Shown: positions 32,969-53,571, counted from the first letter of the stretch. The stretch: DNA of 64,000 nt from an uncultured Gammaproteobacteria bacterium (GCA_964519725.1 CAZFKS010000005.1:6024-70023); one strand, 5' to 3'. Made by a program: numbers and translations. Notes: generated by a model from the sequence alone, not told the origin.

Positions 32969-34381
32969 ATGAAATTCACTGACTACAAAGTAGCTGACCT
33001 TAAACTAGCCGACTGGGGCCGCAAAGAAATTACTATCGCTGAGCAGGAAATGCCTGGGCTCATGGCCATCCGGGAAAAATACGCGCCAAAAAAACCGCTG
33101 AGGGGTGTGAACATTACTGGCTCACTTCACATGACCATTCAAACTGCGGTTCTGATTGAAACCCTCAAAGCTCTAGGTGCTAATGTGCGCTGGGCTAGTT
33201 GTAATATTTTTTCCACCCAAGACCAAGCCGCCGCCGCCATTGCTGCCGCGGGAATTCCAGTGTTTGCTTGGAAAGGTGAAACGCTCGCTGAATACTGGTG
33301 GTGCACAGAAAAGGCACTTAACTTTGGTAATGGTCGCGGTCCAGATTTAATTGTTGATGATGGTAGTGACGCCACCCTTCTTATTCACAAAGGTGTCGAA
33401 GTGGAAATGAATCCAGGTTTACTGACTAAAAATTACAAAACCGAGGGGGCTGATTTCCAAGAACTGATGAAGCTTTTGCAAGCTGAATATAAAAAGAATC
33501 CTAAGCGCTGGCAAACTGTGGCTAACACGGTACGCGGTGTGTCAGAAGAAACGACCACTGGTGTGCATCGCCTAGAACAAATGGTACGCGACCACAAACT
33601 TTTATTCCCAGCCATTAATGTTAATGACTCGGTTACCAAAAGTAAGTTTGATAATGTTTATGGTTGCCGTCACTCAATTATTGATGGCTTAAACCGCGCC
33701 ATGGATGTAATGTTGGCTGGTAAAGTGGCCGTGGTTTGCGGTTATGGTGATGTTGGTAAAGGTTGCGCCCAAGCGCTCCAAGGCCAAGGCGCACGCGTGA
33801 TTGTGACTGAAGTTGATCCCATTTGTGCACTCCAAGCGGCCATGGAAGGTTTTGAAGTGACCACGGTAGAAAACACTTTGGGCCGCGCTGATATTTATGT
33901 CACGGCCACTGGCAATATTGATGTAATCACTGTTGAACACATGAAGAAAATGAAACCAGAAGCAATTGTGTGCAACATTGGTCACTTTGACAATGAAATT
34001 CAAGTGGAAAAACTAAATAAAACTGCCGGAGTCAAAAGAGTAAACATTAAACCACAAGTTGATAAATACATTTTTGGCAAAAAAGCCATGTATTTACTGG
34101 CTGAGGGCCGGCTTATGAATTTGGGTTGTGCCACTGGTCACCCAAGTTTTGTGATGAGTAATTCATTTAGTAATCAAGTGCTGGCGCAATTAGATTTGTG
34201 GAAACACAAAGATGAATACGAACCAAAAGTGTACTTGCTACCAAAAGAATTAGACGAAGAAGTGGCCCGTTTACACCTAGCCAAAATCGGGGTCAAGCTC
34301 ACTAAGCTTAGCAAAGACCAGGCTAAATACATTGGCGTGAGCGACACCGGACCATTTAAAAATGAAACATACCGATACTAA
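32969..34381 (+). CDS. ahcY: adenosylhomocysteinase
   Basis: [28 protein letters not shown] and an NAD-binding [10 protein letters not shown]. 471 aa. Confidence 0.95.
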
Positions 34382-34382
34382 G

Positions 34383-34407
34383 AAAAATCCCCTAACGGGG
34401 ATTTTTT
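34383..34407. terminator. bidirectional intrinsic terminator
   Basis: atcccc-taac-ggggat followed by T5. Confidence 0.6.
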
Positions 34408-35890
34408 AACGCATTGCTACAGCTGGAGCGGTTGAAGTTTGATATTCAGCCAAGAGGGTTTGCAAAGCTTGAAGATTTTTATGGTATTCTTTGTCACCCT
34501 TAACCACAAACTCATTCCATTTTTCCGAACCACTTCCCAACAGCATTCCTTTTTCACCCTCCACCGTGGAAACCTCCAAAGCCACTTTTCTTTTCTCTGC
34601 CCAACCCTGCAAGTTAATGGCTAATTCGACGAGATGTTTTTCCATTTGGGCACCTGGCTGTGTTTCAGCTAGGGTTCCGTACCATGTTTCAATTGCTTGA
34701 GTCCGTTTTTCAATATGAAAATTTTGCCGGCTGAACAATGACGGAACATCATCATTATACGCGCCCTTAACACCCTCTAGTTCAAATTCACGTTGGTTGG
34801 CAATCGCATCTTTTATGCGCTCATCATATGCCCGAACCGCGAGTTCTGATTTCAAAAAATCAACTAGAGCTTGTCGCAATTTCGTTTGAATATTTTTAGG
34901 CGCTTTTTCTATTTGTGGAATGGCATGTTTAGCCAATTCAACCGCTGAATTCACTTGTTTAGTGTAGAAATCTTCGTGATTTTTTAGTGGTAAGTAATTT
35001 TCGCTAGTATAAAAAATACTACTGGTACCGTAGCCACTGCCCATGACCGGAGGCTGAACGTAAATTGATTCCTGAAAAATTCCTCGCATGGTCTGTAATT
35101 CAGTCTCTGGTATGGCTAGCAAATTAGCCAGTTCAGGTGCAAATTTTTCGGAAAATTTTATACTCCGGTCAATTTGATGGCCAAATTTTAAATATACACC
35201 CAAAAGTCCAGGGCCTGATTCTTCGACTGACAAACCAAGGCCTTTTTTCGGGTGCTCTGAAACATAACGTTTAAACTGTTTAAAAAGATAAGATGTATCA
35301 GGCACCTCAACACTTTCTGGCATGATCAAAAAAGAATCTGGCACTGGGGGTGGTGAAAATTCATCAGCTGATTTAAGTAACTCGGCGGTGGCGTTCTTGG
35401 CCTCTTCAAACTGCTGATATTCCTGTCCCACTTTGGCTGCGCCCAAGACTCCGAGACCAACCAAGGGCCCAGCCATAAAACGGCGAAATTTTTCCATTCG
35501 GGTCGCAATTTCTTTTCGAAAAACTTTAAATTCAGCTAGCAGACCCTCTAGTTTTTGCACGGCTTCAGGCGATTTTTTACCAAGCCATTCATCGCGCAAA
35601 GTCTTAATTTCCGCAATTAAAGTATCAATTTCAACCCGAGCCAAATTTTTATCAATGTGCCCTTCAGCCAAATTCTTTTTAATGTCAGCCAAATGACCAA
35701 CAAACTTTTCCCAAATTGCCTGAGCCTGGGTTTCAGGGGCTTTGAGCGCAGCTTCTACTATCTCATTGACCTCCGGCAAAGTTTGGTACAATTCGGGTGT
35801 TTCCTGTTCCGTATCCTCCTCAGCCTGAGGTTCAAATTCAGCGACAAAATGTGATGATTCGGCTTCAGTGCCGGCACTAAGTCTACCCAT
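34406..35890 (-). CDS. hypothetical acidic coiled-coil protein (494 aa from MGRLSAG)
   Basis: Long ORF with host-like codon usage, an acidic N-terminus and predicted coiled-coils. No recognised domain. Divergent from the ABC permease array. Confidence 0.55.
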   Translation of the reverse strand: MGRLSAGTEAESSHFVAEFEPQAEEDTEQETPELYQTLPEVNEIVEAALKAPETQAQAIWEKFVGHLADIKKNLAEGHIDKNLARVEIDTLIAEIKTLRDEWLGKKSPEAVQKLEGLLAEFKVFRKEIATRMEKFRRFMAGPLVGLGVLGAAKVGQEYQQFEEAKNATAELLKSADEFSPPPVPDSFLIMPESVEVPDTSYLFKQFKRYVSEHPKKGLGLSVEESGPGLLGVYLKFGHQIDRSIKFSEKFAPELANLLAIPETELQTMRGIFQESIYVQPPVMGSGYGTSSIFYTSENYLPLKNHEDFYTKQVNSAVELAKHAIPQIEKAPKNIQTKLRQALVDFLKSELAVRAYDERIKDAIANQREFELEGVKGAYNDDVPSLFSRQNFHIEKRTQAIETWYGTLAETQPGAQMEKHLVELAINLQGWAEKRKVALEVSTVEGEKGMLLGSGSEKWNEFVVKGDKEYHKNLQALQTLLAEYQTSTAPAVAMR

Positions 35891-41713: not shown

Positions 41714-42787
41714 ATGGTTAAGACTGAAAAAGTGAATTTTAGCAAAATGCGCTCGGCCTTTTTCTTTGGCCTGATTGCGCTGTTGACTATGGCCATGCTC
41801 TATTTATTTCAACCTTTCTTTTACCCAATTTTCTGGGCCGCGGTAATTGCCGTAATGTTTTACCCACACTACGAATGGTTAAATAATTATCTCAAAATGC
41901 CAAATCTCAATGCTGGGATTATGGTTGGTATAGTGATTTTGACTATTTTCATCCCATTAACACTGGTGTTTGCGCTCCTGGCCAGTGAAGCGGGCAAAGC
42001 TTATGGTCGGGTAGATGTAAATGACATCACTCCACATGTGCAAAAATTAACTGAATGGTTAAATCACACACCACTTGGCAATATGTTACCAAGTTCACCA
42101 GCAGAGTGGAGTAAAAAAACTGCCGAGTGGGGTGAAAAAATTAGTGGCTCAATGCTGACCTATTTGAAAAGCTTTACTCAAAACTCGTTCAGTTTTATTT
42201 TCAATTTATTCCTAATGTTTTACTCGCTCTTTTTCTTTTTCCGTGACGGTAAAGCCATACTCATGCGTCTCATGCACTTATCACCGCTTGGGGAAAAATA
42301 TGAAATCATGCTTTACGAACATTTCACTTCCACCACGCGCGCCACTTTGAAGAGCACCCTGATTGTGGGCACAATTCAGGGACTACTAGGTGCACTTTTG
42401 TTCTGGCTAACTGGGGTGTCAGGTGCGTTTGTGTGGGGCGTGTTAATGTTGGTGTTCTGTTTAATTCCAGCGGTTGGTTCATTTATTGTCTGGCTCCCAA
42501 TTGGTTTAATCATGCTGGCACTTGGCAATATTTGGCAGGGTGTAACAATTTTAGCCGTTGGTGCGCTCGTCATTAGTACGATTGATAATTTCCTCCGCCC
42601 ACCACTCATCGGCAAGGACATTCAGATGCACCCACTCTTGGTTTTATTCTCAACCCTTGGCGGAATTTTCGTATTTGGCATTTCTGGGTTTGTGATCGGG
42701 CCAGTTCTAGCTTCGCTCTACCTCGCGACCATGAGCATTTACGACCATTACTACAAAAACGAATTAGACTTAGAACATAAAGCTTAA
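41714..42787 (+). CDS. AI-2E family transporter (PerM/UPF0118)
   Basis: Eight TM helices with a typical AI-2E N-terminus (FFFGLIALLTMAMLYLFQPFFYPIFWAAVIAV) and a C-terminal GPVLASL. Confidence 0.8.
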   Translation: MVKTEKVNFSKMRSAFFFGLIALLTMAMLYLFQPFFYPIFWAAVIAVMFYPHYEWLNNYLKMPNLNAGIMVGIVILTIFIPLTLVFALLASEAGKAYGRVDVNDITPHVQKLTEWLNHTPLGNMLPSSPAEWSKKTAEWGEKISGSMLTYLKSFTQNSFSFIFNLFLMFYSLFFFFRDGKAILMRLMHLSPLGEKYEIMLYEHFTSTTRATLKSTLIVGTIQGLLGALLFWLTGVSGAFVWGVLMLVFCLIPAVGSFIVWLPIGLIMLALGNIWQGVTILAVGALVISTIDNFLRPPLIGKDIQMHPLLVLFSTLGGIFVFGISGFVIGPVLASLYLATMSIYDHYYKNELDLEHKA

Positions 42788-42793
42788 GCAAAC

Positions 42794-42819
42794 AAAAAAT
42801 CCCCACGTGGGGATTTTTT
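42794..42819. terminator. intrinsic terminator
   Basis: aaaaaatcccc-acgt-ggggatttttt. Confidence 0.6.
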
Positions 42820-42869
42820 AATAAAAATGGTTGGGCGGCGAGCGGGCGCGTCGTCGTCCAACGCGCGGC

Positions 42870-43124
42870 TCACCGCCTAGTTCTCGGCGAAGAGGGCGGG
42901 GGCAATTCCACGGCCGGACCCAGAGGATTTACCTCGGAGATCCGGTAGTTGTTGGCCTGCACATAACTCGGAGGCACACTCTTCAGCGCCTCCGCGTGAG
43001 TGGTTAGTCCACTTTTGTGCAAGACCCACTTGCTTTTCGGATCGCTCCTGACCTCCACCTTCCAGGTGGAGGGTTCTGGAATTGGCTGGGCCGGGATAAA
43101 CTTCAAAGGCTTCTTGGTGCTCAC
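42870..43124 (-). CDS. hypothetical 84-aa protein on the high-GC islet abutting tRNA-Leu (GTG start)
   Basis: GC-rich ORF preceded by a strong SD (ccAAGGAGAtcgtcGTG) and followed by a GC-rich imperfect hairpin. No recognised domain. An alternative overlapping 99-aa frame exists but has a poorer start context. Confidence 0.45.
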   Translation of the reverse strand: MSTKKPLKFIPAQPIPEPSTWKVEVRSDPKSKWVLHKSGLTTHAEALKSVPPSYVQANNYRISEVNPLGPAVELPPPSSPRTRR

Positions 43125-43185
43125 GACGATCTCCTTGGACAGACCAAATCTGTCTTAGTTTGTACTTATTTATCATATTTTAAAT

Positions 43186-43222
43186 AAAAAAACAAGATCC
43201 AGAGTCAGGATCTTAGTTTTAG
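43186..43222 (-). terminator. intrinsic terminator following tRNA-Leu
   Basis: On the minus strand: ctaagatcc-tgactctg-ggatcttg followed by T7. Confidence 0.5.
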
Positions 43223-43225
43223 GTG

Positions 43226-43308
43226 TGCCGCGGGCGGGACTCGAACCCGCACGACCTTGCGATCGGGGGATTTTAAGTCCCCTGTGTATACCATTTCACC
43301 ACCGCGGC
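43226..43308 (-). tRNA. tRNA-Leu (anticodon TAA), type II with a long variable arm, CCA not encoded
   Basis: Minus-strand sequence GCCGCGGTGGTGAAATGGTATACACAGGGGACTTAAAATCCCCCGATCGCAAGGTCGTGCGGGTTCGAGTCCCGCCCGCGGCA. Anticodon loop CTTAAAA, 15-nt variable arm, acceptor GCCGCGG/CCGCGGC. Confidence 0.85.
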
Positions 43309-43347
43309 GCAGGAATATAATAGCAGAGCTTACAATCCTTTTCAAGC

Positions 43348-43887
43348 CTACTTCTCCCAAAAGACCTCTTTCTCCCCAGCCTCGGTATTGAGGTACCGTC
43401 CCAGCACAAAGAGCGCATCACTCAGCCGGTTTAAATATTTTTGCACCACTGCCAACCCATTATATTCACTTGCCAGCCCAACCACTTGCCGCTCGGCCCG
43501 CCGGCAAATTGCCCGGGCCACAAAACTCTGGGCTGCCCCCAAACTTCCACCTGGTAAAATAAATTGCGTCAGTGGCGACAAATTTTCTGACCAAGCATCA
43601 ATCCATGCTTCTAGTTCTATCACTGCACTTTCAGGCAGTTGTGGCACAGCTACCAAATCCGTTTGCACCGCGGCAAGCTGCGACCCCACCACAAACAAAT
43701 TATTCTGCATGGTTTTTAATTTACTTTTTACACTTTCAGGCGTCACCAAAGCCACCAGCACTCCTAGGGCGCTATTCAGTTCATCTACCTCACCAATCGC
43801 TTCCATTTCAAGGCAATTTTTCTTAACCCGTTTTCCACCCAAGAGCGACGTTTCGCCCTGATCCCCAGTTTTAGTGTAAATTTTCAT
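43348..43887 (-). CDS. ATP:cob(I)alamin adenosyltransferase, PduO/MMAB type
   Basis: MKIYTKTGDQGETSLLGGKRVKKNCLEMEAIGEVDELNSALG is the canonical PduO-type N-terminus. Confidence 0.85.
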   Translation of the reverse strand: MKIYTKTGDQGETSLLGGKRVKKNCLEMEAIGEVDELNSALGVLVALVTPESVKSKLKTMQNNLFVVGSQLAAVQTDLVAVPQLPESAVIELEAWIDAWSENLSPLTQFILPGGSLGAAQSFVARAICRRAERQVVGLASEYNGLAVVQKYLNRLSDALFVLGRYLNTEAGEKEVFWEK

Positions 43888-43928
43888 ACTTGCGTTTTGG
43901 CTCAAAAATAGTTAAGCTGCCTAGCACT

Positions 43929-44624
43929 ATGACACAAACTCAGCCTATCCCGCAACACCTCGCCATTATTCTGGACGGCAATCGCCGCTGGGCCGCAGAA
44001 CGCGGTTTACCCAAATTAGTTGGCCACACCCAAGGTGCCAAAAATCTCCGCATCATTGCCAAAGCCGCGCAAAAAGCGGGTGTAAAATATTTAACTGTTT
44101 ACGCCCTCTCCACTGAAAACTTAAAAGAGCGTAGCCCCGAAGAATTAAAACATTTGTTTGAATTGTTTGAACAATTAGTCGATTATCTGGGTGATTTTAT
44201 TTCTAATAATGCGCAACTCCGATTAATTGGCAACATTGACGGCCTCCCTACCAAAACCGCCACTAATTTACGCAAAGTGGCTGAAGAAACCAAAAATAAT
44301 CAGGACTTTGTATTAACCATTGCGGTTAATTACGGTGGCCGCGACGAGCTCACCCGCGCCCTGCAAAAAATTTCCGCGCAAAATATTCAAGCTGCCGAAA
44401 TTACTGAAGATTTAATTTCCCAAAATTTAGATACCGCTGGCATTCCTGACGTTGATTTACTCATTCGCCCAGGCGGACACCACCGTTTATCTAATTTTCT
44501 TTCCTGGCAATCCACCTATGCCGAACTCTACTTTGTGGATGTAAAATGGCCTGGTTTTGATGAAAATGAATTACAAAAAGCCTTCGCTTGGTTTGCCGAA
44601 CAACAGCGCAACCGCGGCAAATGA
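43929..44624 (+). CDS. uppS: isoprenyl transferase (undecaprenyl diphosphate synthase)
   Basis: HLAIILDGNRRWA, GHTQGAKNL, LTVYALSTEN and RPGGHHRLSNFLSWQSTYAELYF are classic cis-prenyltransferase motifs. Confidence 0.9.
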   Translation: MTQTQPIPQHLAIILDGNRRWAAERGLPKLVGHTQGAKNLRIIAKAAQKAGVKYLTVYALSTENLKERSPEELKHLFELFEQLVDYLGDFISNNAQLRLIGNIDGLPTKTATNLRKVAEETKNNQDFVLTIAVNYGGRDELTRALQKISAQNIQAAEITEDLISQNLDTAGIPDVDLLIRPGGHHRLSNFLSWQSTYAELYFVDVKWPGFDENELQKAFAWFAEQQRNRGK

Positions 44625-45371
44625 TTACTTTTTCTTAGCAATCCGCGAGACTTCCCAAGTAATTGCAAACAAATTATTGAGCGTGTGGTATAAATCAGCC
44701 GACTCAATAATCATCCCAAAATTTTCTTTTTGTGTGCCAATTAGGCCCACTTTATTGTCGTACAAATACACGGTCATGGGAAAAATTAAATTATTTGGCG
44801 CATAACGAAGCTCACGTTTTTCTGACTCGCTAGCTGGCCAAACTTCAGCCACTTCTTTTTGTTCAGATCGAATTACTTGCAAGGTCAAACCAGTGTTCAC
44901 ACGCTCTTTGACATACCAGGCCATGTATTCTGGACCAGGCACACGATACAAATCTTCCATTGATAAAATGCCGCGCAGAATTTTTGAGCGACAAGTGAGC
45001 GTATCAGCAAACACAGTTTTAATTCCCGAAACACCAGCGTAAAAACGAATATGTGGACGCACGCCCGTAGTGTTAAGAAGCGAAGCTAGTTCTGGTAACA
45101 CCGCTTCCAACTTGCGCTCTTTTTCCTTTAAAATATTTTTTAATTTTTGTGGATCTTCAGCTGTGTAAATCCGGGTTCGACCACGCGTAGTCAAACTAAC
45201 CAGACCCATGGCGTGCAGTTGCGTTAAAATTTCGTGCGTAGTGGTGCGCGGCAGCCCAGCTTGAACTGAAACCTCACGGGCAGTGCCAGTGCCCACTGAT
45301 AATGCGGCCAAATATACCCCACCTTTGGTCTTGTTTAGGCCAAATTCTTCCAAAACCTTTTGAATATTCAT
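44625..45371 (-). CDS. TrmB-family transcriptional regulator
   Basis: N-terminal TrmB wHTH (GLNKTKGGVYLAALSVGTGTAREVSVQAGLPRTTTHEILTQL) plus a TrmB C-terminal domain. Start at MNIQKV. Confidence 0.75.
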   Translation of the reverse strand: MNIQKVLEEFGLNKTKGGVYLAALSVGTGTAREVSVQAGLPRTTTHEILTQLHAMGLVSLTTRGRTRIYTAEDPQKLKNILKEKERKLEAVLPELASLLNTTGVRPHIRFYAGVSGIKTVFADTLTCRSKILRGILSMEDLYRVPGPEYMAWYVKERVNTGLTLQVIRSEQKEVAEVWPASESEKRELRYAPNNLIFPMTVYLYDNKVGLIGTQKENFGMIIESADLYHTLNNLFAITWEVSRIAKKK

Positions 45372-45539
45372 ATTGACGATATTTTCCGACAACAAGTGAT
45401 TGCTGTTTTTTAGCTTATCCTAGCAAAATATCTATACCACAGAATGCAATTTTTGTCAATATGTACTATAATTGTAGACGAACTTTTTGTCCAGTGGTAA
45501 TGTTGGCCGTTGCCGATACTGGCAGCGAGGGAGGGGAGA

Positions 45540-46244
45540 ATGGACCTAAAAGGACAAGTACGGAAAATAGGGCGGCCAATTTGGCGACATGCGGCTTTGC
45601 ACCGGATTTCTCAGGGGGAATTTACCCCTGACGAGATGCGGCGCTTTGTCCTGCAGCGCCATGCTTTAGCCACAGGTTTTGTCGGACTCCTCAAGAGCAT
45701 CATCCGGAATACGGACGACGAGGCTCTCAGAGAGTGTGTCTGGCAAAACCTGGCGGACGAGACCGGTCACGGCGTAGAGCGTGATTCGCATGCCACCTGG
45801 CGTGCGGATTATCTGCGCGGACTTGGGCTTGACCCGCCCTACACAGCACCGCTCTGGAGCGGCACCAGGCACTACAATGAGGTTTTGCGCGAGCTCAGCT
45901 CCGCCAATCCTCTCGTCAGTGCTGGTGCACTTTGGCTCCTGGAGCGGAGCCTTCCACCTGAATTTGCGCGAATCCGGCGCGGACTCGAGCGGGTGTTCCC
46001 AAACACCTTTGTGCTCAGTCTGGCTGATACAGCCGAAGTGCGTGCTCGCAAAGAGCGCACCCGGTTGTATCTCGTGGATCACGAACGGCACGATGCCGCG
46101 TACCACGAGCCTGACTTGCGACGTGTGCTTACCCGTCCCGACTGGGACGGACGTGCGTGCGCGTCAATTCTCTTAGGCGCTGAGCTCGTCGCCGCTGCCA
46201 AAGTGAAGTTCTACGACTCGGTCGCAGACTCGCTTGGCAAGTAA
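45540..46244 (+). CDS. hypothetical high-GC protein (234 aa), possibly heme-oxygenase-like/PqqC-TenA-like helical fold
   Basis: Strong SD (GGGAGGGGagaATG). GC3-rich codons and an all-helical, Arg-rich composition. The NLADETGHG segment is weakly reminiscent of iron-containing redox/PqqC-like proteins. Followed by the GC hairpin at 46251-46270. Confidence 0.55.
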   Translation: MDLKGQVRKIGRPIWRHAALHRISQGEFTPDEMRRFVLQRHALATGFVGLLKSIIRNTDDEALRECVWQNLADETGHGVERDSHATWRADYLRGLGLDPPYTAPLWSGTRHYNEVLRELSSANPLVSAGALWLLERSLPPEFARIRRGLERVFPNTFVLSLADTAEVRARKERTRLYLVDHERHDAAYHEPDLRRVLTRPDWDGRACASILLGAELVAAAKVKFYDSVADSLGK

Positions 46245-46294
46245 ACGCTCCCCCGGTCGCAAGGCCGGGGTCAACTCTTTGCAAAGTGAGAAAT

Positions 46295-46321
46295 AAAAAA
46301 TCCCCGCCAGGGGATTTTTTA
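46295..46321. terminator. bidirectional intrinsic terminator between the convergent high-GC genes
   Basis: aaaaaatcccc-gcca-ggggatttttt. An upstream GC hairpin ccccggtcgcaaggccgggg and the palindrome ctttgcaaag also lie here. Confidence 0.55.
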
Positions 46322-46418
46322 TTTTAAACCAACTTAATATTCATTTAAAAAAAATAAATACTCAGTTAGGTTGCGCGGCCGATCCTTTTCGGACCAGTCA
46401 CCGCGCTTCCCTCCTGCG

Positions 46419-46994
46419 CTAGTCTTTGGTGATGGGGTCTGGGTCCCCTTCAGCCATTCCGTAGCGCTTTTGACCGCGATCAGTCTTGTGGTCGATGGTG
46501 CCATGTGACACTTCAACCACTGTGGCGCTGCAGAGCGGTCGCAGAACCAGCTGAACCGGTGAGCGATCGGGCCCAAACGTCTGGGGAACCTCCCCAACGT
46601 TCAGAACCGAGAGCACTGCGCCTTTCCAGTCGGCTGGGTCCGGGCGGTAGTTCTGGTCGAACACCACACCGGCCGGAATCACGAGCCGTTTTTTGGCCGG
46701 ACCAGTCTTGGCCACGACCTCGGCGAACCACCCTGGCGGTGGAACAAAGGTGAGTCCGGTGGCGAACTCGGCCGCTTGTCCGGGAAGGACTGTGAACTCC
46801 TCCACAGGAAACACGTCCCAGCCCGAGTCTGAGGCATGGGATTTGGTGGGAATTCTTCCCCCCATTTCCCGAGCCCTCGGGTGAAGGCTGAATTTGAAGA
46901 CCGCAGGGCCCTTTTCCTCGAGCCGAGAAATTCTCCAGTTGATCCAGCCGAATCCAAACACCACGACCGCTGTAACGACACTTTCAAAGACCAT
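46419..46994 (-). CDS. hypothetical high-GC protein (191 aa) with dUTPase/dCTP-deaminase-like beta-barrel motifs and an N-terminal TM segment
   Basis: SD cGGAGGGAGaaaagccATG at MVFESVV. Segments SDSGWDV, VAKTGPAKK, GVVFDQNYRPD and RSPVQLVL align with dUTPase motifs I, III, IV and V in order. GC3-rich. Confidence 0.5.
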   Translation of the reverse strand: MVFESVVTAVVVFGFGWINWRISRLEEKGPAVFKFSLHPRAREMGGRIPTKSHASDSGWDVFPVEEFTVLPGQAAEFATGLTFVPPPGWFAEVVAKTGPAKKRLVIPAGVVFDQNYRPDPADWKGAVLSVLNVGEVPQTFGPDRSPVQLVLRPLCSATVVEVSHGTIDHKTDRGQKRYGMAEGDPDPITKD

Positions 46995-47085
46995 GGCTTT
47001 TCTCCCTCCGTTTTTGGAGTCCAATTTTACCATAAGGTTATATTTTTTCAATATTACTTAATGTCTCAAAATAAATATTTAAAAA

Positions 47086-47118
47086 ATAAAAAATCCCCCG
47101 ATTCCGGAGGATTTTTTA
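47086..47118. terminator. bidirectional intrinsic terminator
   Basis: aaaaaatcccccg-attc-cggaggatttttt between the dUTPase-like gene and the nrdJ 3' end. Confidence 0.55.
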
Positions 47119-47135
47119 TTAACTATCCCATCTCT

Positions 47136-50100
47136 TTAACTGCATCCTAGTGAATCACCACAGTTCAAACATTTGTAACAAGCACCGTTACGCACTGTAA
47201 TGTGTCCGCAGGTTGGACAAGCTGGAGCATCACCCATCATTTCACCAAGCGCAGCATCCATCGCATCCACGGCGCCAGTGTTTTCACTTGGCAATGGTAA
47301 TTCCATGGTTGCTTCTTCGGCCGTAGTTTCTACAGCTGGAACGGCCACCACTTGTGTGGTTGGTGCTGCCATCATGTCAGTTAAACGGGCTTGCGCACCA
47401 TTATCTGCTACTTGGCGAGTGGCAATTTGTTCAAAGCGATTTTTTTGAATTCCTTTTGGTGGCACCTGCACAAAGTCTGTGCGGCCGAGGTATTCCATAC
47501 CCAAAACGCGGAACACGAAATCAATCACTGAGGTACAAATTTTTACATTTGGATGGTCAGTCATGCCAGCTGGTTCAAAACGGGTAAAGACAAAGTTTTC
47601 AACAAACTTTTCGAGCGGCACACCGTATTGCAAACCAATTGAAACTGAAATTGCAAACATGTTTAACATACTGCGGAAACCAGCGCCTTCTTTGTACATA
47701 TCAATGAAAATTTCCGCCAGTTTTCCGTCTGGATATTCACCAGTGCGTAACCAAATTTGTTGATTACCAATTTTAGCTGACACAGTAATCCCACTGCGTT
47801 TAGCTGGTAAGCGGCGTTTTTCACCGTGCACATACACGTGGTGGTCAGTTACAGTGCCGTCTTTACTGTACATTTCCATGGCGTGTGAATCTGGCGTGTG
47901 ACTACTCATGATCTGACTGACTTTTTGTAGAGCAGTCGAAAGATCAGCCGCCGTAGTTGAAACAGCTGCGCGGAGCGGTTCAACTTTTGTTTCTTCTTTT
48001 TCTTTTTTATCTTCAGCTTTCTTAGAAGACGTAGCGAGCGGCTGTGAAAGTTTTGATCCGTCGCGGTAAAGTGCTACAGCCTTCAAACAAAGTTCCCAAG
48101 ATTCCCAGTACGCTTGTTTTACATCTTCCAAAGTGGCTTCATTTGGCATGTTAATGGTCTTGGAAATCGCCCCGGAGAGGAATGGCTGAGCAGAAGCCAT
48201 CATGCGCAAGTGGCCGCGCCAGTGAATATAACGTTGACCTTTTTTTCCACATTTATTAGCACAGTCAAAAATTGGGTAGTGACTCTCAGCCAAATGTGGC
48301 GCACCTTCAATGGTCATGGCTCCACACACATATTCATTGGCCGCTTCAATTTGATCGGCAGTAAAACCAAGACCAGCGAGCATGTTAAAGTTTGGATCAT
48401 TGTACTCAGTTGGAGTAAAGCCAGCCCGTTTCAAGCAATCCTCGCCCAAGGTCCACATGTTGAACGCAAATTTAATTTCAAAGGCTGAACCAAGCGCTTT
48501 ATTAAGCGCCACTAAATCAGCGTCAGTGAAACCTTTAGCTTTCAAAGTGTCAGCATTGATAAATGGCGCTTTGGTAATGTCCCCAGTGCCTTTCATATAA
48601 TCAACAATGTCACTAATTTGACTGGTCGTATAGCCCAAATTCTTGAGTGCGACTGGCACTGCATCATTAACAATTTTGAAATATCCCCCACCAGCCAATT
48701 TTTTGAATTTTACCAAGGCAAAATCTGGTTCAACCCCAGTGGTAGCACAGTCCATTAAGAGACCAATGGTTCCAGTTGGTGCGAGCAAGGTGGTTTGGGC
48801 ATTGCGGTAACCATATTCTTCACCCCACTCTAAAGCTTCATTCCAGGATTCACGGGCCGCGGCCAACAAATAAGCCGGAGCATACTCAGGATTAATTCCC
48901 ACTGGTTTCACCGTTAATTTTTCGTAATCAGCGTCTGGAGCATTAAAGGCCGCGCGACGGTGGTTGCGAATAACGCGGAGCATGTCTTTTTTATTGAGTT
49001 CGTACTTTGGGAAAGTGCCCAGGAAACGAGCCATTTCCGCGCTAGTGCGGTAACTTTCACCAGTCATGAGCGCAGTAACAGCGCCAGTGAACGCGTAGGC
49101 TTCTTCTGATTCATACGGAATTCCACTCATCATCAAGACTGACCCAATGTTAGCATAACCAAGACCCAAAGTGCGGAACTCATAACTCATTTGCGCAATT
49201 TCTTTACTTGGGAATTGAGCCATGAGCACGGAAACCTCCAAAACTACAGTCCACAAACGAGTGGCATGTTTGAAACCGTCAACATCAAAGGTCAAAGTGG
49301 CTGGGTCGAAAAAGTGCACCAAGTTAAGTGAGGCCAAGTTACAAGCTGTGTTGTCGAGGAACAAATATTCACTGCATGGATTTGAGCCATTAATCCGACC
49401 AGATTGTGGTGAAGTGTGCCATTCATTAATATTGTCATCAAACTGGAGACCAGGATCAGCACAAGCCCAGGCCGCAAACGCAATTTGATCCCAAAGTTCT
49501 TGAGCTTTCAAAGTTTTGCAAGTTGACCCATCAGTGCGCCAAGTCAAATTCCAACTACCATCGTTTTTGAGTGCTTCCATGTATTTGTTTGGAACACGCA
49601 CTGAGTTGTTGGAATTTTGACCAGATACGGTTTGGTACGCTTCACCCTCGTAATCAGATGGATAACCAGCGGCCATGAGCGCGGCCACTTTCTTTTCTTC
49701 TTCTACCTTCCAGTTAATGAAAGTCAAAATATCTGGGTGGTCAAGATTCAAAATCACCATTTTGGCAGCGCGGCGAGTCGTACCACCAGATTTAATGGCG
49801 CCAGCAGCGCGATCACCAATTTTTAACCAACTCATGAGGCCAGAAGATTTACCGCCACCTGACAAAGGTTCGCCACGACCACGAAGATTGGAGAAATTGG
49901 TTCCAGTTCCAGAACCATATTTGAACAAACGTGCTTCACGCACCCAAAGATCCATGATCCCGCCCTCATTTACCAGGTCGTCATTAATTGATTGGATAAA
50001 ACAAGCGTGTGGTTGCGGGTGAGAGTAGGCGTCTTTGGCGCGAGTGAGCACACCAGTGTCTGGGTCAACGTAATAATGTCCCTGTGCTCCGCTGTTAATT

Positions 50101-50633
50101 CCGTAAGCCCAATGCAAGCCAGTGTTAAACCACTGTGGTGAGTTTGGGGCAGCCATTTGGCGGAGTAACATTACCACCATTTCATCGTAAAAAATCTCGG
50201 CATCCTTTGGTGATGCAAAGTAACCATATTTTTCACCCCAATATCGCCAAGTTCCGGCCAGCCGGTGCATTGTCTGCTTTACGCTGGTTTCAGGTCCTAG
50301 CATGGGAGACCCGTCCGCGTTCAGCTTTGGCGTTCCATCAGCGTTAAACTGAGGTACACCGGCTTTTCGGAAATACTTTTGGGCAATAATATCAGTCGCA
50401 ACTTGTGACCAACTCTTTGGGATTTCAATGTCTTTCATTTCAAAGACAACCGTTCCATCTGGTTCACGGATCACTGAGCTGCGTTTTTCGTACTCTATTA
50501 AATCAAATGGGCTGATTCCTTCCTGACTAAATCGGCGCGTAACACGAAGTCCATTGTCATTGTACGCAAAAGTAGTATTGGCTTGTTGCCCGAGTTTGAG
50601 TCCGGCAATAAATTTGGAATCAGTTGGCCCCAT
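47136..50633 (-). CDS. nrdJ: adenosylcobalamin-dependent (class II) ribonucleotide reductase
   Basis: 1165 aa with a class II RNR N-terminus (MGPTDSKFIAGLKLGQQANTTFAYNDNGLRVTRRF...), an active-site region and a C-terminal zinc-ribbon CPTCGH...CYKCLNCG. Confidence 0.93.
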   Translation of the reverse strand: MGPTDSKFIAGLKLGQQANTTFAYNDNGLRVTRRFSQEGISPFDLIEYEKRSSVIREPDGTVVFEMKDIEIPKSWSQVATDIIAQKYFRKAGVPQFNADGTPKLNADGSPMLGPETSVKQTMHRLAGTWRYWGEKYGYFASPKDAEIFYDEMVVMLLRQMAAPNSPQWFNTGLHWAYGINSGAQGHYYVDPDTGVLTRAKDAYSHPQPHACFIQSINDDLVNEGGIMDLWVREARLFKYGSGTGTNFSNLRGRGEPLSGGGKSSGLMSWLKIGDRAAGAIKSGGTTRRAAKMVILNLDHPDILTFINWKVEEEKKVAALMAAGYPSDYEGEAYQTVSGQNSNNSVRVPNKYMEALKNDGSWNLTWRTDGSTCKTLKAQELWDQIAFAAWACADPGLQFDDNINEWHTSPQSGRINGSNPCSEYLFLDNTACNLASLNLVHFFDPATLTFDVDGFKHATRLWTVVLEVSVLMAQFPSKEIAQMSYEFRTLGLGYANIGSVLMMSGIPYESEEAYAFTGAVTALMTGESYRTSAEMARFLGTFPKYELNKKDMLRVIRNHRRAAFNAPDADYEKLTVKPVGINPEYAPAYLLAAARESWNEALEWGEEYGYRNAQTTLLAPTGTIGLLMDCATTGVEPDFALVKFKKLAGGGYFKIVNDAVPVALKNLGYTTSQISDIVDYMKGTGDITKAPFINADTLKAKGFTDADLVALNKALGSAFEIKFAFNMWTLGEDCLKRAGFTPTEYNDPNFNMLAGLGFTADQIEAANEYVCGAMTIEGAPHLAESHYPIFDCANKCGKKGQRYIHWRGHLRMMASAQPFLSGAISKTINMPNEATLEDVKQAYWESWELCLKAVALYRDGSKLSQPLATSSKKAEDKKEKEETKVEPLRAAVSTTAADLSTALQKVSQIMSSHTPDSHAMEMYSKDGTVTDHHVYVHGEKRRLPAKRSGITVSAKIGNQQIWLRTGEYPDGKLAEIFIDMYKEGAGFRSMLNMFAISVSIGLQYGVPLEKFVENFVFTRFEPAGMTDHPNVKICTSVIDFVFRVLGMEYLGRTDFVQVPPKGIQKNRFEQIATRQVADNGAQARLTDMMAAPTTQVVAVPAVETTAEEATMELPLPSENTGAVDAMDAALGEMMGDAPACPTCGHITVRNGACYKCLNCGDSLGCS

Positions 50634-53167: not shown

Positions 53168-53488
53168 ATGATCCCCGGAAGGCACAGTTTTTCCCTGGAA
53201 GAAGGAGCGGAGCTGACGCTCCCAGCCTGGGCAGAGAGAACCATCTTCGCTTCCAAGCATGCGGACCGGTTCCCAGATACGCCGTGCGTGCTGCCCGTGC
53301 GCCAGTACGCTAGTGGGCTCTATGAGCCTGTGGCGCCGCGCCGAAAGGGTGGTACCAAGGAGATCGGACGCCATCTGTTCATCCCCAGCGGCGTAAAGGC
53401 GGGGGAAACCCTGTACATCCTGTGGGTGGACGACCGCTCTGCGGCCGCAGTCCGCAAGAAGGATCTACCCTCTCGCCCCCTCTGCTGA
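53168..53488 (+). CDS. hypothetical high-GC protein (106 aa)
   Basis: GC-rich ORF beginning right after the DUF1294 stop, with an SD (cgaAAGAGGttccaaccATG). Followed by GC-rich inverted repeats and a host-type terminator. No recognised domain. Confidence 0.45.
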   Translation: MIPGRHSFSLEEGAELTLPAWAERTIFASKHADRFPDTPCVLPVRQYASGLYEPVAPRRKGGTKEIGRHLFIPSGVKAGETLYILWVDDRSAAAVRKKDLPSRPLC

Positions 53489-53545
53489 CACCCTCCTCCT
53501 CCGACTCGGTGCGGCGCGCCAGCGCCCCGAGTCAACCCCATCTTA

Positions 53546-53571
53546 CAAAAAACGACTTTGGTCGTTTTTTT
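53546..53571 (+). terminator. intrinsic terminator
   Basis: aaaaaacgac-tttg-gtcgttttttt. Confidence 0.6.

What the first reader, a model, noticed from the sequence alone, without database searches (positions are those of the whole stretch)
42826..43225. High-GC islet 2 abutting the 3' end of tRNA-Leu
A roughly 350-bp segment of about 60% GC lies exactly between the AI-2E transporter terminator and tRNA-Leu(TAA), a second tRNA-adjacent insertion in this window. It carries an 84-aa GTG-initiated ORF with a strong AAGGAGA SD, a GC-rich imperfect hairpin downstream, and an overlapping alternative 99-aa frame. I found no conserved ncRNA motifs (RNase P, tmRNA, SRP) in it, so a protein-coding import is more likely than a structured RNA. 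That cannot be settled without covariance models.
Basis: partly seen in the sequence, partly recalled or inferred. Interest (0 to 1): 0.6.

Follow-up and report, generated by a model that had tools for sequence, protein, structure and literature searches.

The report
Orphan small gene with conserved hairpin
The GC-rich patch next to tRNA-Leu is a real, fast-evolving 84-codon gene of unknown function, found only in one small group of uncultured Magasanikbacteria (CPR), and it ends in a 35-base hairpin element that is as conserved as the tRNA beside it.

Summary
Window 42826-43130 is 60% GC in a 43% GC window, and it carries an SD-preceded 84-codon GTG ORF (42870..43124, minus strand) that ends in a GC-rich hairpin. 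No Rfam family matches it. The ORF codes for protein: relatives at the same locus give dN/dS of 0.12-0.21 and a strong excess of third-position changes. The organism is a Candidatus Magasanikbacteria (CPR). The gene occurs in six lineages, always between tRNA-Leu(UAA) and an AI-2E transporter. It comes in two very divergent forms, W and L. More distant relatives have an empty slot or unrelated genes there. It is not a fresh import. Its synonymous divergence matches that of the flanking transporter, and its GC3 stays at 0.55-0.74 in every lineage against a window mean of 0.40. There is no integrase, no tRNA-end duplication, and no phage or plasmid match. AlphaFold gives a small beta-beta-alpha-alpha-beta core with proline-rich tails and no significant fold match. 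The unexpected part is the 3' element. The TGA stop sits in the 5' arm of a 17-19 bp hairpin. The hairpin's loop and 3' arm (42830-42864) are nearly invariant, although neighbouring synonymous sites are saturated. I read this as a 3'-UTR regulatory or stability element, and that reading is inferred. Interest is moderate to low.

The parts
43225..43308 (-). tRNA-Leu(UAA). This is the upstream neighbour and is context only, not part of the islet.
   Evidence: Found by ARAGORN and by Rfam at 60.5 bits. 9 of 83 columns vary among the six lineages.
43193..43215 (-). The tRNA-Leu gene's own terminator-like hairpin with a T7 run. It separates the tRNA from the small gene.
   Evidence: Flagged by the terminator scan. 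An equivalent hairpin of different sequence is present in L046, L045, L050 and L049.
43156..43192 (-). AT-rich promoter-like region. It holds TATGAT / TGaTAAAT (about 43168-43177) and is partly conserved as CATGATAAAAAT or TGGTAATAAAG in relatives.
   Evidence: Seen in the alignments. No strong -35 was found. Promoter function is inferred, not shown.
43138..43154 (-). 5'-UTR stem-loop GACAGA-uuugg-UCUGUC, placed 2-3 nt before the SD.
   Evidence: Found. Two of six pairs change on both sides and stay paired: A-U becomes G-C in L001, and G-C becomes A-U plus A-U becomes G-C in L049. The L-type lineages instead have a weaker SD-sequestering helix.
43130..43136 (-). Shine-Dalgarno AAGGAGA, 5 nt before the GTG start.
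   Evidence: Read directly from the sequence. AGGAGA or AGGGAG is conserved at the same distance in all lineages.
42870..43124 (-). 84-codon protein-coding gene (W-type). Sequence: MSTKKPLKFIPAQPIPEPSTWKVEVRSDPKSKWVLHKSGLTTHAEALKSVPPSYVQANNYRISEVNPLGPAVELPPPSSPRTRR.
   Evidence: ORF listed. dN/dS is 0.21 against L001 and 0.12 against L049. The L-type pairs give 0.16-0.19, with differences by codon position of 9/12/37. Homologs are P0001 at 94% and P0004 at 59% identity. AlphaFold2 predicts the core (residues 20-65) with pLDDT about 90.
42834..42877 (-). GC-rich hairpin H1, made of 10 + 8 bp with a GACGA loop. The TGA stop (42870-42872) lies in its 5' arm.
   Evidence: RNAfold gives -28 to -38 kcal/mol in all lineages. 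The 5' arm varies but re-pairs through G.U pairs and register shifts. It is not a canonical intrinsic terminator, because the U-run starts 7 nt after the stem.
42830..42864 (-). Near-invariant core of the 3' element: GCGTTGGACGACGACGCGC(C)CGCTCGCCGCCCAAC.
   Evidence: Only 2-3 variable columns of about 36 among six lineages. The 3' element is 93% identical between the window and L046, where the ORF is 39% and the AI-2E gene 68% identical. It is single-copy in the window and in all held loci.
42793..42820 (.). Bidirectional intrinsic terminator AAAAAATCCCCACGTGGGGATTTTTT, shared with the convergent AI-2E transporter gene.
   Evidence: Found. The same terminator type recurs at 34378 and 46291. 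In relatives the sequence differs but the structure is kept.

Best explanation
The islet is a single, independently expressed small-protein gene that has been inherited vertically within one subclade of Candidatus Magasanikbacteria.

On the minus strand the order is:
- the tRNA-Leu terminator;
- an AT-rich promoter-like box;
- a short 5' stem-loop;
- the SD;
- 84 codons;
- a TGA stop embedded in the 5' arm of a very stable GC-rich hairpin (H1);
- a U/A-rich spacer;
- the bidirectional terminator shared with the AI-2E gene.

The protein has a folded core of about 45 residues (beta-beta-alpha-alpha-beta) between proline-rich, probably disordered tails, and it ends in a basic C-terminus. It evolves 2-7 times faster than the neighbouring transporter but remains under purifying selection. 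Its function is unknown. These points are shown by the analyses.

The following is inferred. H1 is a 3'-UTR element that acts at the RNA level. It would protect the mRNA 3' end or control its processing, in the manner of lambda sib or a REP-type stabiliser. Its invariant loop and 3' arm would be read sequence-specifically by a trans-acting partner. That partner could be a protein, possibly the small basic protein itself, or target RNAs, if the segment is released as a 3'-UTR-derived small RNA that ends in the downstream terminator. High GC at synonymous sites is maintained by selection or biased conversion. It is not a leftover of recent transfer.
For: Coding status:
- dN/dS is 0.12-0.21 in five pairs.
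- Third-position differences are in excess (9/12/37, 16/18/49, 18/23/49).
- Other frames give omega 0.35-0.97.
- SD, start and stop are at the same places in all six lineages.

Vertical inheritance: dS of the small gene is 0.89, 1.36 and 1.73, against 0.65, 1.52 and 1.63 for the flanking AI-2E gene.

Restricted distribution:
- Only 5 relatives were found in the word-indexed search of 5.8 billion proteins.
- One strong hit was found in the full HMMER scan of 1.84 billion representatives.
- All relatives lie at the same locus.
- The slot is empty or holds other genes in L003-L007.

Fold: AlphaFold2 gives pLDDT about 90 for residues 20-65. The L-type model has the same order of secondary-structure elements but low confidence.

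3' element:
- The hairpin is stable in every lineage.
- The core is as conserved as the tRNA, while pS of the adjacent genes is 0.44-0.78.
- Variation is confined to the 5' arm, the bulge and the tail.
- No Rfam family matches.

Maintained GC: GC3 is 0.55-0.74 in six lineages, against 0.40 +/- 0.06 in the window.
Against: - No expression data exist. The promoter and the transcript ends are inferred from consensus-like motifs only.
- The function of the protein is unknown. Pfam, PHROGs, NCBIfam, PADLOC, PDB sequence search and Foldseek against PDB and BFVD gave nothing significant.
- Invariant stem positions give no covariation support. The two changes in L045/L050 weaken H1 on the ORF strand, producing A.C mismatches.
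- Homology between the W and L forms is only weakly supported: BLASTP finds nothing, the global alignment z-score is 2.1, and hhalign gives E = 0.046. Replacement of the ORF between conserved boundaries cannot be excluded.
- Excess RNA structure inside the ORF is strong in the window (z = -3.4) but not in L049 or L046.
Confidence: 0.72

Rival explanations
1. The invariant 3' core is itself coding. A micro-ORF would be translated by termination-reinitiation coupling. The ribosome stopping at TGA melts H1. A GGTGA Shine-Dalgarno-like motif overlaps the stop. A TTG start 8-10 nt downstream opens MDDDA(P/L)ARRPT(I/L)(F/Y/S)IKK..., 18-25 or more codons long. Combined peptide and pairing constraints would freeze the loop and 3' arm, while the intercistronic 5' arm stays free to vary.
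For: TTG, GGTGA and the reading frame are present in the window, L049, L046, L045 and L050, as read. Two of the five variable sites are synonymous third positions (GCG/GCA and ACC/ACA), and one is a conservative I/L change. This reading explains why the 5' arm varies and the 3' arm does not.
Against: - L001, the closest relative, has a 1-nt insertion that frameshifts the micro-ORF after codon 5.
- Synonymous positions are far too conserved for a purely coding constraint.
- The C-terminal part and the length are not conserved, and the ORF runs into the terminator.
- Open frames are expected by chance in GC-rich DNA.
- TTG is a weak start codon buried in a stem.
Confidence: 0.12
2. The islet is a small mobile or exchangeable cassette, a remnant of a tRNA-targeted island. 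The invariant core would be a DNA recombination site. It is an imperfect 12-bp inverted repeat, GTTGG(G/A)CG(G/A)CGA, with a 9-10 bp spacer. Different ORFs (W-type and L-type) would have been swapped in between the tRNA and this site.
For: - The slot between tRNA-Leu and the transporter holds unrelated cargo in L004, L005 and L006 and is empty in L003 and L007.
- The W and L ORFs are nearly unalignable (15-21% identity), although PduO identity across the clades (73%) equals that within the W clade (74%), where the ORF is 57% identical.
- The boundaries (tRNA and 3' core) are conserved.
- Between the window and L001 the ORF has 12 substitutions while the flanks are identical.
Against: - No integrase, transposase or reverse transcriptase lies within +/-10 kb.
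- No copy of the tRNA 3' end is found at the far boundary (p = 0.26).
- The core is single-copy, and it is absent from phage, plasmid, viral and metagenome scans.
- The order GTTRRRY...RYYYAAC is the reverse of an integron attC site.
- dS of the ORF equals that of the flanks within each clade.
- The weak W/L profile match aligns the same core motif, W-x-VEV...W.
Confidence: 0.1
3. The functional product is a structured non-coding RNA of about 330 nt on either strand, a CPR-specific housekeeping or regulatory RNA. On this reading the ORF is incidental to GC-rich sequence.
For: The 378-nt transcript folds far better than shuffled sequence: z = -6.3 on the minus strand and -5.0 on the plus strand. 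In the window the ORF region alone gives z = -3.4, or -5.0 against synonymous-codon shuffles. One internal hairpin keeps a pair through two synonymous changes in L049, as read. Structured RNAs do stand out as GC-rich islets in AT-richer genomes.
Against: - Clear codon-position and dN/dS signal is seen in one frame only.
- Internal structure is not conserved: z is -0.7 in L049 and L046.
- The middle of the region is unalignable between the W and L forms, whereas an RNA gene would keep several conserved patches.
- No Rfam hit is found even at E<=10.
- ARAGORN finds no tmRNA.
Confidence: 0.05

Closest known systems
Lineage-specific (ORFan) small-protein genes of CPR/Patescibacteria and other bacteria
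   Same: It is a short gene of under 100 codons with its own SD and terminator. It has no family assignment, a narrow taxonomic range, evolves faster than its neighbours, and sits in a variable intergenic slot next to a tRNA gene.
   Different: Its synonymous GC content is strongly and persistently elevated relative to the genome. Its 3' UTR is far more conserved than its coding sequence.
3'-UTR stem-loop retroregulators and stabilisers (lambda sib/int, REP-type 3' stabilisers) and 3'-UTR-derived small RNAs (e.g. CpxQ, SroC, MicL in enterobacteria). This comparison is from my own knowledge.
   Same: A stable hairpin lies just after the stop codon and ahead of the true terminator. A sequence-conserved segment is followed by an intrinsic terminator whose own sequence is free to vary.
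   Different: No processing site, RNase III dependence, partner protein or target is known. No expression data exist. CPR bacteria generally lack Hfq. The stop codon lies inside the stem.
tRNA-targeted genomic islands and integrative elements
   Same: The islet is located downstream of a tRNA gene. Its composition is atypical. It is present in some relatives and absent in others.
   Different: It has no integrase and no direct repeat of the tRNA 3' end. It carries a single gene. It lies beyond the tRNA's own terminator. It is as old as its flanks.
Fibronectin type III domain (Pfam PF00041)
   Same: Residues 19-71 give weak matches of about 25 bits per repeat to strands C-F of tandem FN3 proteins: S.YRIEVSSDGGSNW...YRVSAINTAG against STWKVEVRSDPKSKW...NYRISEVNPLG.
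   Different: Pfam's fn3 model does not hit the protein. The library E-value is inflated by repeat summation. The protein is too short for strands A and B. AlphaFold2 predicts two helices in the middle. The L-type lacks the F-strand motif.

Membership tests
Known structured RNA families (RNase P, tmRNA, SRP, 6S and all of Rfam 15) | A covariance-model score at or above the family's gathering threshold | tested here: not met
   cmscan at gathering thresholds finds only the three tRNAs in 64 kb. At E<=10 on 42700-43330 nothing falls inside the islet except one 10-bit chance hit. ARAGORN finds no tmRNA.
Protein-coding gene under selection | dN/dS well below 1 and an excess of third-position changes in one frame; conserved start, SD and stop | tested here: met
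   Omega is 0.12-0.21 in five pairs, and differences by codon position are for example 9/12/37. SD, start and TGA are conserved in position in six lineages.
tRNA-targeted integrative island | An integrase or recombinase gene inside or beside the island | tested here: not met
   The neighbours within +/-10 kb are ABC-2 permeases, an ABC ATPase, AI-2E, PduO, UppS, TrmB, an oxygenase-like gene, class II RNR and RuvB. No recombinase is present.
tRNA-targeted integrative island | A direct repeat of the tRNA 3' end at the distal boundary (attL/attR) | tested here: not met
   The best local alignment of the tRNA-Leu end to the 3' element scores 15, and 26% of shuffles do as well. The repeat finder shows no such repeat.
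Integron gene cassette (attC site) | R'' (RYYYAAC) directly after the ORF and R' (GTTRRRY) at the 3' end, forming the outer stem, usually in arrays or near an integron integrase | tested here: not met
   Read directly from the sequence, the order is reversed (GTTGGAC ... GCCCAAC) on both strands. There is a single copy and no integrase.
Diversity-generating retroelement target (variable region + IMH + hairpin) | A template repeat about 90% identical nearby, a reverse transcriptase, and adenine-specific, mostly non-synonymous variation at the C-terminus | tested here: not met
   There is no second copy of the ORF in the window and no reverse transcriptase among the neighbours scanned. The differences between the window and L001 are mostly synonymous and lie in the N-terminal two thirds. 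A remote template repeat elsewhere in the genome cannot be excluded.
Canonical intrinsic terminator | A GC-rich stem followed within 0-2 nt by a U-run | tested here: not met
   H1 is followed by CCAACCA before the U-run and was not called by the scan. The next hairpin (42793-42820) does meet the definition.
Bacterial SECIS (UGA recoding hairpin) | An in-frame, conserved coding sequence continuing after the UGA | tested here: not met
   The spacer after the TGA differs in length by 2 nt among lineages, so the downstream frame is not kept. Read.
Type I toxin-antitoxin (small toxin with a 3'-overlapping antisense RNA) | A small hydrophobic membrane peptide | tested here: not met
   The protein is hydrophilic and has no hydrophobic segment (sequence). 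AlphaFold2 predicts a soluble alpha/beta core. An antisense promoter is not conserved (variable TAATA[A/T/G]).
Fibronectin type III domain | A match to PF00041 and a seven-strand all-beta sandwich | tested here: not met
   There is no Pfam hit at E<=1. The model contains two helices and only three strands. The best FN3 structure in Foldseek has E = 3.3.
3'-UTR-derived small RNA or riboregulator | A sequence-conserved segment upstream of an intrinsic terminator whose own sequence is free to vary | tested here: met
   The core is invariant in six lineages, while the following terminator has three different sequences.
3'-UTR-derived small RNA or riboregulator | A stable short transcript with a defined 5' end, and identified targets | not testable with these tools
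   No transcript data are available. A simple complementarity scan of the 64-kb window gave no convincing target.

The most novel reading that the evidence does not exclude
The near-invariant 35-nt core, together with its masking 5' arm, is a new CPR-specific 3'-UTR riboregulator. It could be a small-RNA seed that is released when translation or an RNase opens hairpin H1. It could instead be the binding site through which the basic 84-aa protein controls its own mRNA. Either way, the gene and the element would form one co-evolving unit in which the protein diverges fast while its RNA partner stays frozen.
Probability: 0.25. Interest if true: 0.55.

Novelty: new member of a known kind. Interest (0 to 1): 0.36.

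Why it matters
This result settles a compositional anomaly. It is neither a missed housekeeping RNA nor a fresh island. It is a resident orphan gene whose GC-richness is actively maintained in a 43% GC CPR genome. Compositional 'islets' in such genomes therefore cannot be read as recent transfer by default. The practical lead is the 3' element. A 35-nt stretch as conserved as a tRNA, sitting next to saturated synonymous sites, is a clean candidate for a cis- or trans-acting RNA signal in a phylum where almost nothing is known about post-transcriptional control. The small protein family adds one more uncharacterised, fast-evolving CPR-specific fold.

Tried and rejected
1. **Known RNA families.** Rfam at gathering thresholds and at E<=10, plus ARAGORN, gave nothing.

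2. **Protein family libraries.** Pfam, PHROGs, NCBIfam and PADLOC, tried on the 84-, 99- and 58-aa frames and on relatives, gave nothing.

3. **PDB sequence search.** Only spurious designed-repeat hits were found.

5. **FN3 homology.** Rejected. The E-value is inflated by repeat summation, and the predicted fold disagrees.

6. **Multi-copy repeat (REP or MITE).** The element is a single copy in the window and in all loci.
   - An exact 21-mer in the metagenome collection and a 17-mer in viral contigs hit only chance matches in GC-rich coding DNA (ALDDDA).
   - A degenerate 26-mer found nothing in viral contigs.

7. **att duplication of the tRNA end.** Not significant.

8. **Phage or plasmid origin.** blastn and tblastn found nothing. 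The one exception is a 40-nt, 87.5% match in an unannotated stretch of a Paracoccus plasmid at E = 3e-3, which I judged to be chance.

9. **attC, DGR target, SECIS, type I TA, group II domain V and tRNA-like minihelix with CCA.** Each was considered from the sequence and rejected. See the membership rows. L049 lacks the CCA.

10. **Pairing of the hairpin loop with the start region.** A 7-bp match exists in the window only and is not conserved.

11. **Targets for the core within the window.** None was convincing.

12. **Conserved RNA structure inside the ORF.** It is strong in the window and absent in L049 and L046.

13. **Similarity between the 3' regions of islet 2 and islet 3.** Not significant.

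14. **The exact window protein in the assembly index.** Not on record.

Full report
**Observation.** The window is 43.4% GC. The stretch 42826-43130 is 60.0% GC. On the plus-strand map the order of features is as follows.

| Feature | Coordinates | Strand | Source |
|---|---|---|---|
| AI-2E transporter gene (PF01594) | 41714..42787 | + | |
| Bidirectional terminator | 42793-42820 | both | |
| GC-rich hairpin | 42834-42877 | - | |
| 84-codon GTG ORF, with AAGGAGA 5 nt upstream | 42870..43124 | - | |
| Small stem-loop | 43138-43154 | - | |
| AT-rich stretch | 43156-43192 | - | |
| tRNA-Leu terminator | 43193-43215 | - | |
| tRNA-Leu(UAA) | 43225-43308 | - | |

The GC-rich block is about 305 bp, and about 95 AT-rich bases separate it from the tRNA.

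**It is not a known RNA.** Rfam at gathering thresholds finds only the three tRNAs of the window. A permissive scan (E<=10) of 42700-43330 puts nothing meaningful in the islet. ARAGORN finds no tmRNA.

**Organism and relatives.** The transporter's closest relatives in the species-level genome set are Candidatus Magasanikbacteria (CPR/Patescibacteria) MAGs, with 74% identity at best.

The small protein has very few relatives:
- P0001 is 94% identical (L001, an ENA metagenome contig).
- P0004 is 59% identical. It was found only by the full HMMER scan of 1.84 billion representatives, and it is encoded on L049.

The nearest MAG (L002 = L046) carries a GC-rich islet at the same position with an 89-aa ORF that BLASTP cannot align to the window's protein. 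That ORF has its own relatives:
- P0003 is 76% identical (L045).
- P0009 is 63% identical (L050).

All six lineages share the layout PduO-type adenosyltransferase, tRNA-Leu(UAA), small ORF, AI-2E transporter. I call the two forms W (window, L001, L049) and L (L046/47/48, L045, L050).

More distant Magasanikbacteria keep the tRNA-Leu/AI-2E adjacency but differ in the slot between them:
- It is about 30-45 nt and empty in L003 and L007.
- It holds unrelated genes elsewhere: a MazG-like ORF in L004, a coiled-coil protein in L006, and three genes in L005.

**The ORF is a gene.** In the 84-aa frame, dN/dS values are as follows.

| Pair | dN/dS |
|---|---|
| window - L001 | 0.21 |
| window - L049 | 0.12 |
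| L046 - L045 | 0.16 |
| L046 - L050 | 0.19 |
| L045 - L050 | 0.17 |

Differences by codon position are 9/12/37, 16/18/49 and 18/23/49. Other frames of the window-L001 pair give omega 0.35-0.97. The 99-aa frame is cut by a TAG in the window. The SD, the start codon and the TGA stop fall at equivalent positions in all six lineages.

**It is not a recent import.** Synonymous divergence of the small gene equals that of the adjacent transporter:

| Pair | dS, small gene | dS, AI-2E |
|---|---|---|
| L046 - L045 | 0.89 | 0.65 |
| L046 - L050 | 1.36 | 1.52 |
| L045 - L050 | 1.73 | 1.63 |

Both are saturated between the window and L049. Despite this turnover, GC3 of the small gene is 0.55-0.74 in every lineage, against 0.40 +/- 0.06 for the 43 long ORFs of the window and 0.30-0.47 for the flanking transporter. 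The GC-richness is therefore maintained and is not a decaying signature of transfer.

Other evidence points the same way:
- No integrase, transposase or reverse transcriptase lies within +/-10 kb. The neighbours are housekeeping genes.
- The far boundary carries no copy of the tRNA 3' end.
- Phage, plasmid and viral-contig searches with DNA and protein find nothing.

The gene was gained once in the ancestor of this subclade or lost in others.

**The protein.** AlphaFold2 on the three W sequences gives a confident core: residues 20-65 have pLDDT about 90. The elements are strand 20-25, strand 34-40, helices 43-49 and 52-56, and strand 60-65. Low-confidence proline-rich tails flank the core. The L-type model is poor (pLDDT 55) but has the same order of elements plus a C-terminal helix.

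Profile-profile comparison aligns W residues 19-55 with L residues 37-72 around a shared W-x-VEV-x5-6-W motif, at E = 0.046. A global alignment gives z = 2.1. The two forms are thus probably orthologous, but this is not proven. The small gene is not clock-like: PduO is 73-74% identical both within the W clade and between clades, while the small protein drops from 57% to about 18%.

No family library, PDB sequence search or fold search gives a significant match. Weak hits to tandem FN3 proteins are only about 25 bits per repeat and conflict with the predicted helices. Function is unknown. The soluble basic character is compatible with nucleic-acid binding, but that is only a guess.

**The 3' element.** This is what deserves attention. 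In all six lineages the TGA stop lies in the 5' arm of hairpin H1. H1 has 17-19 bp, a GACGA loop, and a folding energy of -28 to -38 kcal/mol on the ORF strand.

From the loop through the 3' arm, the sequence GCGTTGGACGACGACGCGC(C)CGCTCGCCGCCCAAC (42830-42864) has only 2-3 variable columns out of about 36. The tRNA next door has 9 of 83. Between the window and L046, identity by feature is as follows.

| Feature | Nucleotide identity, window vs L046 |
|---|---|
| 3' element | 93% |
| tRNA-Leu | 89% |
| AI-2E gene | 68% |
| Downstream terminator | 59% |
| Small ORF | 39% |

With pS of 0.44-0.78 at neighbouring synonymous sites, a neutral 35-mer would carry many changes.

The variation that does exist lies in three places. 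The first is the 5' arm, which reads GC--CGC, GCGACGC, ACCGAGC or GTCATGT and always re-pairs, through G.U pairs in L049 and a register shift in L045/L050. The second is the bulge (C, T or AT). The third is the U/A-rich tail.

H1 is not the terminator. The U-run starts 7 nt after the stem, and a canonical bidirectional terminator follows whose sequence differs among lineages. The core is single-copy in the window and in all fetched loci. It was not found elsewhere.

**Interpretation.** What is shown: this is a resident, lineage-restricted, rapidly evolving but constrained small-protein gene with its own translation signals. In the W clade it has a covarying 5'-UTR stem-loop, in which two of six pairs change on both sides. 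Its 3'-UTR hairpin has a loop and 3' arm under strong sequence-level selection.

What is inferred: H1 acts in the RNA to stabilise or process the 3' end, and its invariant half is read by a trans partner. The asymmetry (free 5' arm, frozen loop and 3' arm, free terminator) is what one expects of two models. One is a 3'-UTR-derived small RNA whose seed is masked in the full-length mRNA. The other is a protein-binding site.

The main rival for the core is a translationally coupled micro-ORF: GGTGA, then 8-10 nt, then TTG, encoding MDDDA(P/L)ARRPT(I/L)(F/Y/S)IKK. It is open in five lineages but frameshifted in L001, and it is too conserved at synonymous sites. A DNA-site or cassette-exchange reading (a 12-bp imperfect inverted repeat) and a pure non-coding-RNA reading are less likely, for the reasons given under the rival explanations.

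**Verdict.** The finding is real and is now largely explained. It is an orphan small gene, not a missed housekeeping RNA and not a fresh island. Novelty is modest: a new small-protein family, plus an unusually conserved 3'-UTR element in a CPR bacterium. Interest is moderate to low unless transcript data show that the element is a functional riboregulator.

Noticed in passing
window 53168-53571: A third GC-rich islet has the same build as this one. It has a 106-aa ORF (53168..53488, plus strand, GC3 0.72) with no Pfam, NCBIfam or PADLOC match, then a GC-rich hairpin (GACTCGG...CCGAGTC, 53503-53533), then an AT-type terminator (about 53547-53571). Its 3' region shows no sequence similarity to that of islet 2.
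   Followed up: partly
window 45510-47051: This is a convergent pair of GC-rich genes of 57-59% GC. One is a Haem_oxygenas_2-type iron redox enzyme (45510..46244, plus strand). The other is a 210-aa ORF (46419..47051, minus strand) with only a sub-threshold dUTPase match. The oxygenase-like gene is also present, and also GC-rich, in L049 and L002. GC-rich resident genes are therefore a feature of this lineage.
   Followed up: partly
window 34378-34415, 42790-42827, 46291-46328: Nearly identical bidirectional terminators, AAAAAATCCCC-N4-GGGGATTTTTT, recur between convergent genes.
   Followed up: no
L003 about 7155-7260; L006 3959-4450: In two more distant Magasanikbacteria, an HNH-endonuclease-like ORF (...NLRVLCPNCHSLQ...) sits directly upstream of tRNA-Leu(UAA), in place of the PduO gene.
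   Followed up: no
L004 7233-7589; L005 7065-8680; L006 3420-3932: The slot between tRNA-Leu and the AI-2E gene holds unrelated cargo in other lineages. L004 has a MazG-like pyrophosphohydrolase. L005 has a lipoprotein, an XRE-type HTH protein and a membrane protein. L006 has a coiled-coil protein. This marks a local hot spot of gene turnover.
   Followed up: partly
L001 about 810-1340: This ENA metagenome contig is identical to the window across the tRNA and the transporter 3' end. Inside the transporter gene it switches abruptly to a patatin-like ORF. This is either an assembly chimera or a rearrangement. The contig's ORF region also carries 12 substitutions although its flanks are identical.
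   Followed up: no
window about 42800-43300: Gene orientation converges here, and GC skew turns clearly negative to the right of about 43.2 kb. I did not test whether this marks a replication-related switch. The conserved core does not resemble a canonical dif site (my own knowledge of dif consensus sequences).
   Followed up: no
window 7667-7861 and 9311-9409: Long Asp/Glu-rich low-complexity coding repeats (GAAGAAGATGA-type) appear in two places.
   Followed up: no
window 43348-50633: This is a functionally coherent neighbourhood. A PduO-type cob(I)alamin adenosyltransferase lies close to a class II (adenosylcobalamin-dependent) ribonucleotide reductase and a dUTPase-like ORF.
   Followed up: no
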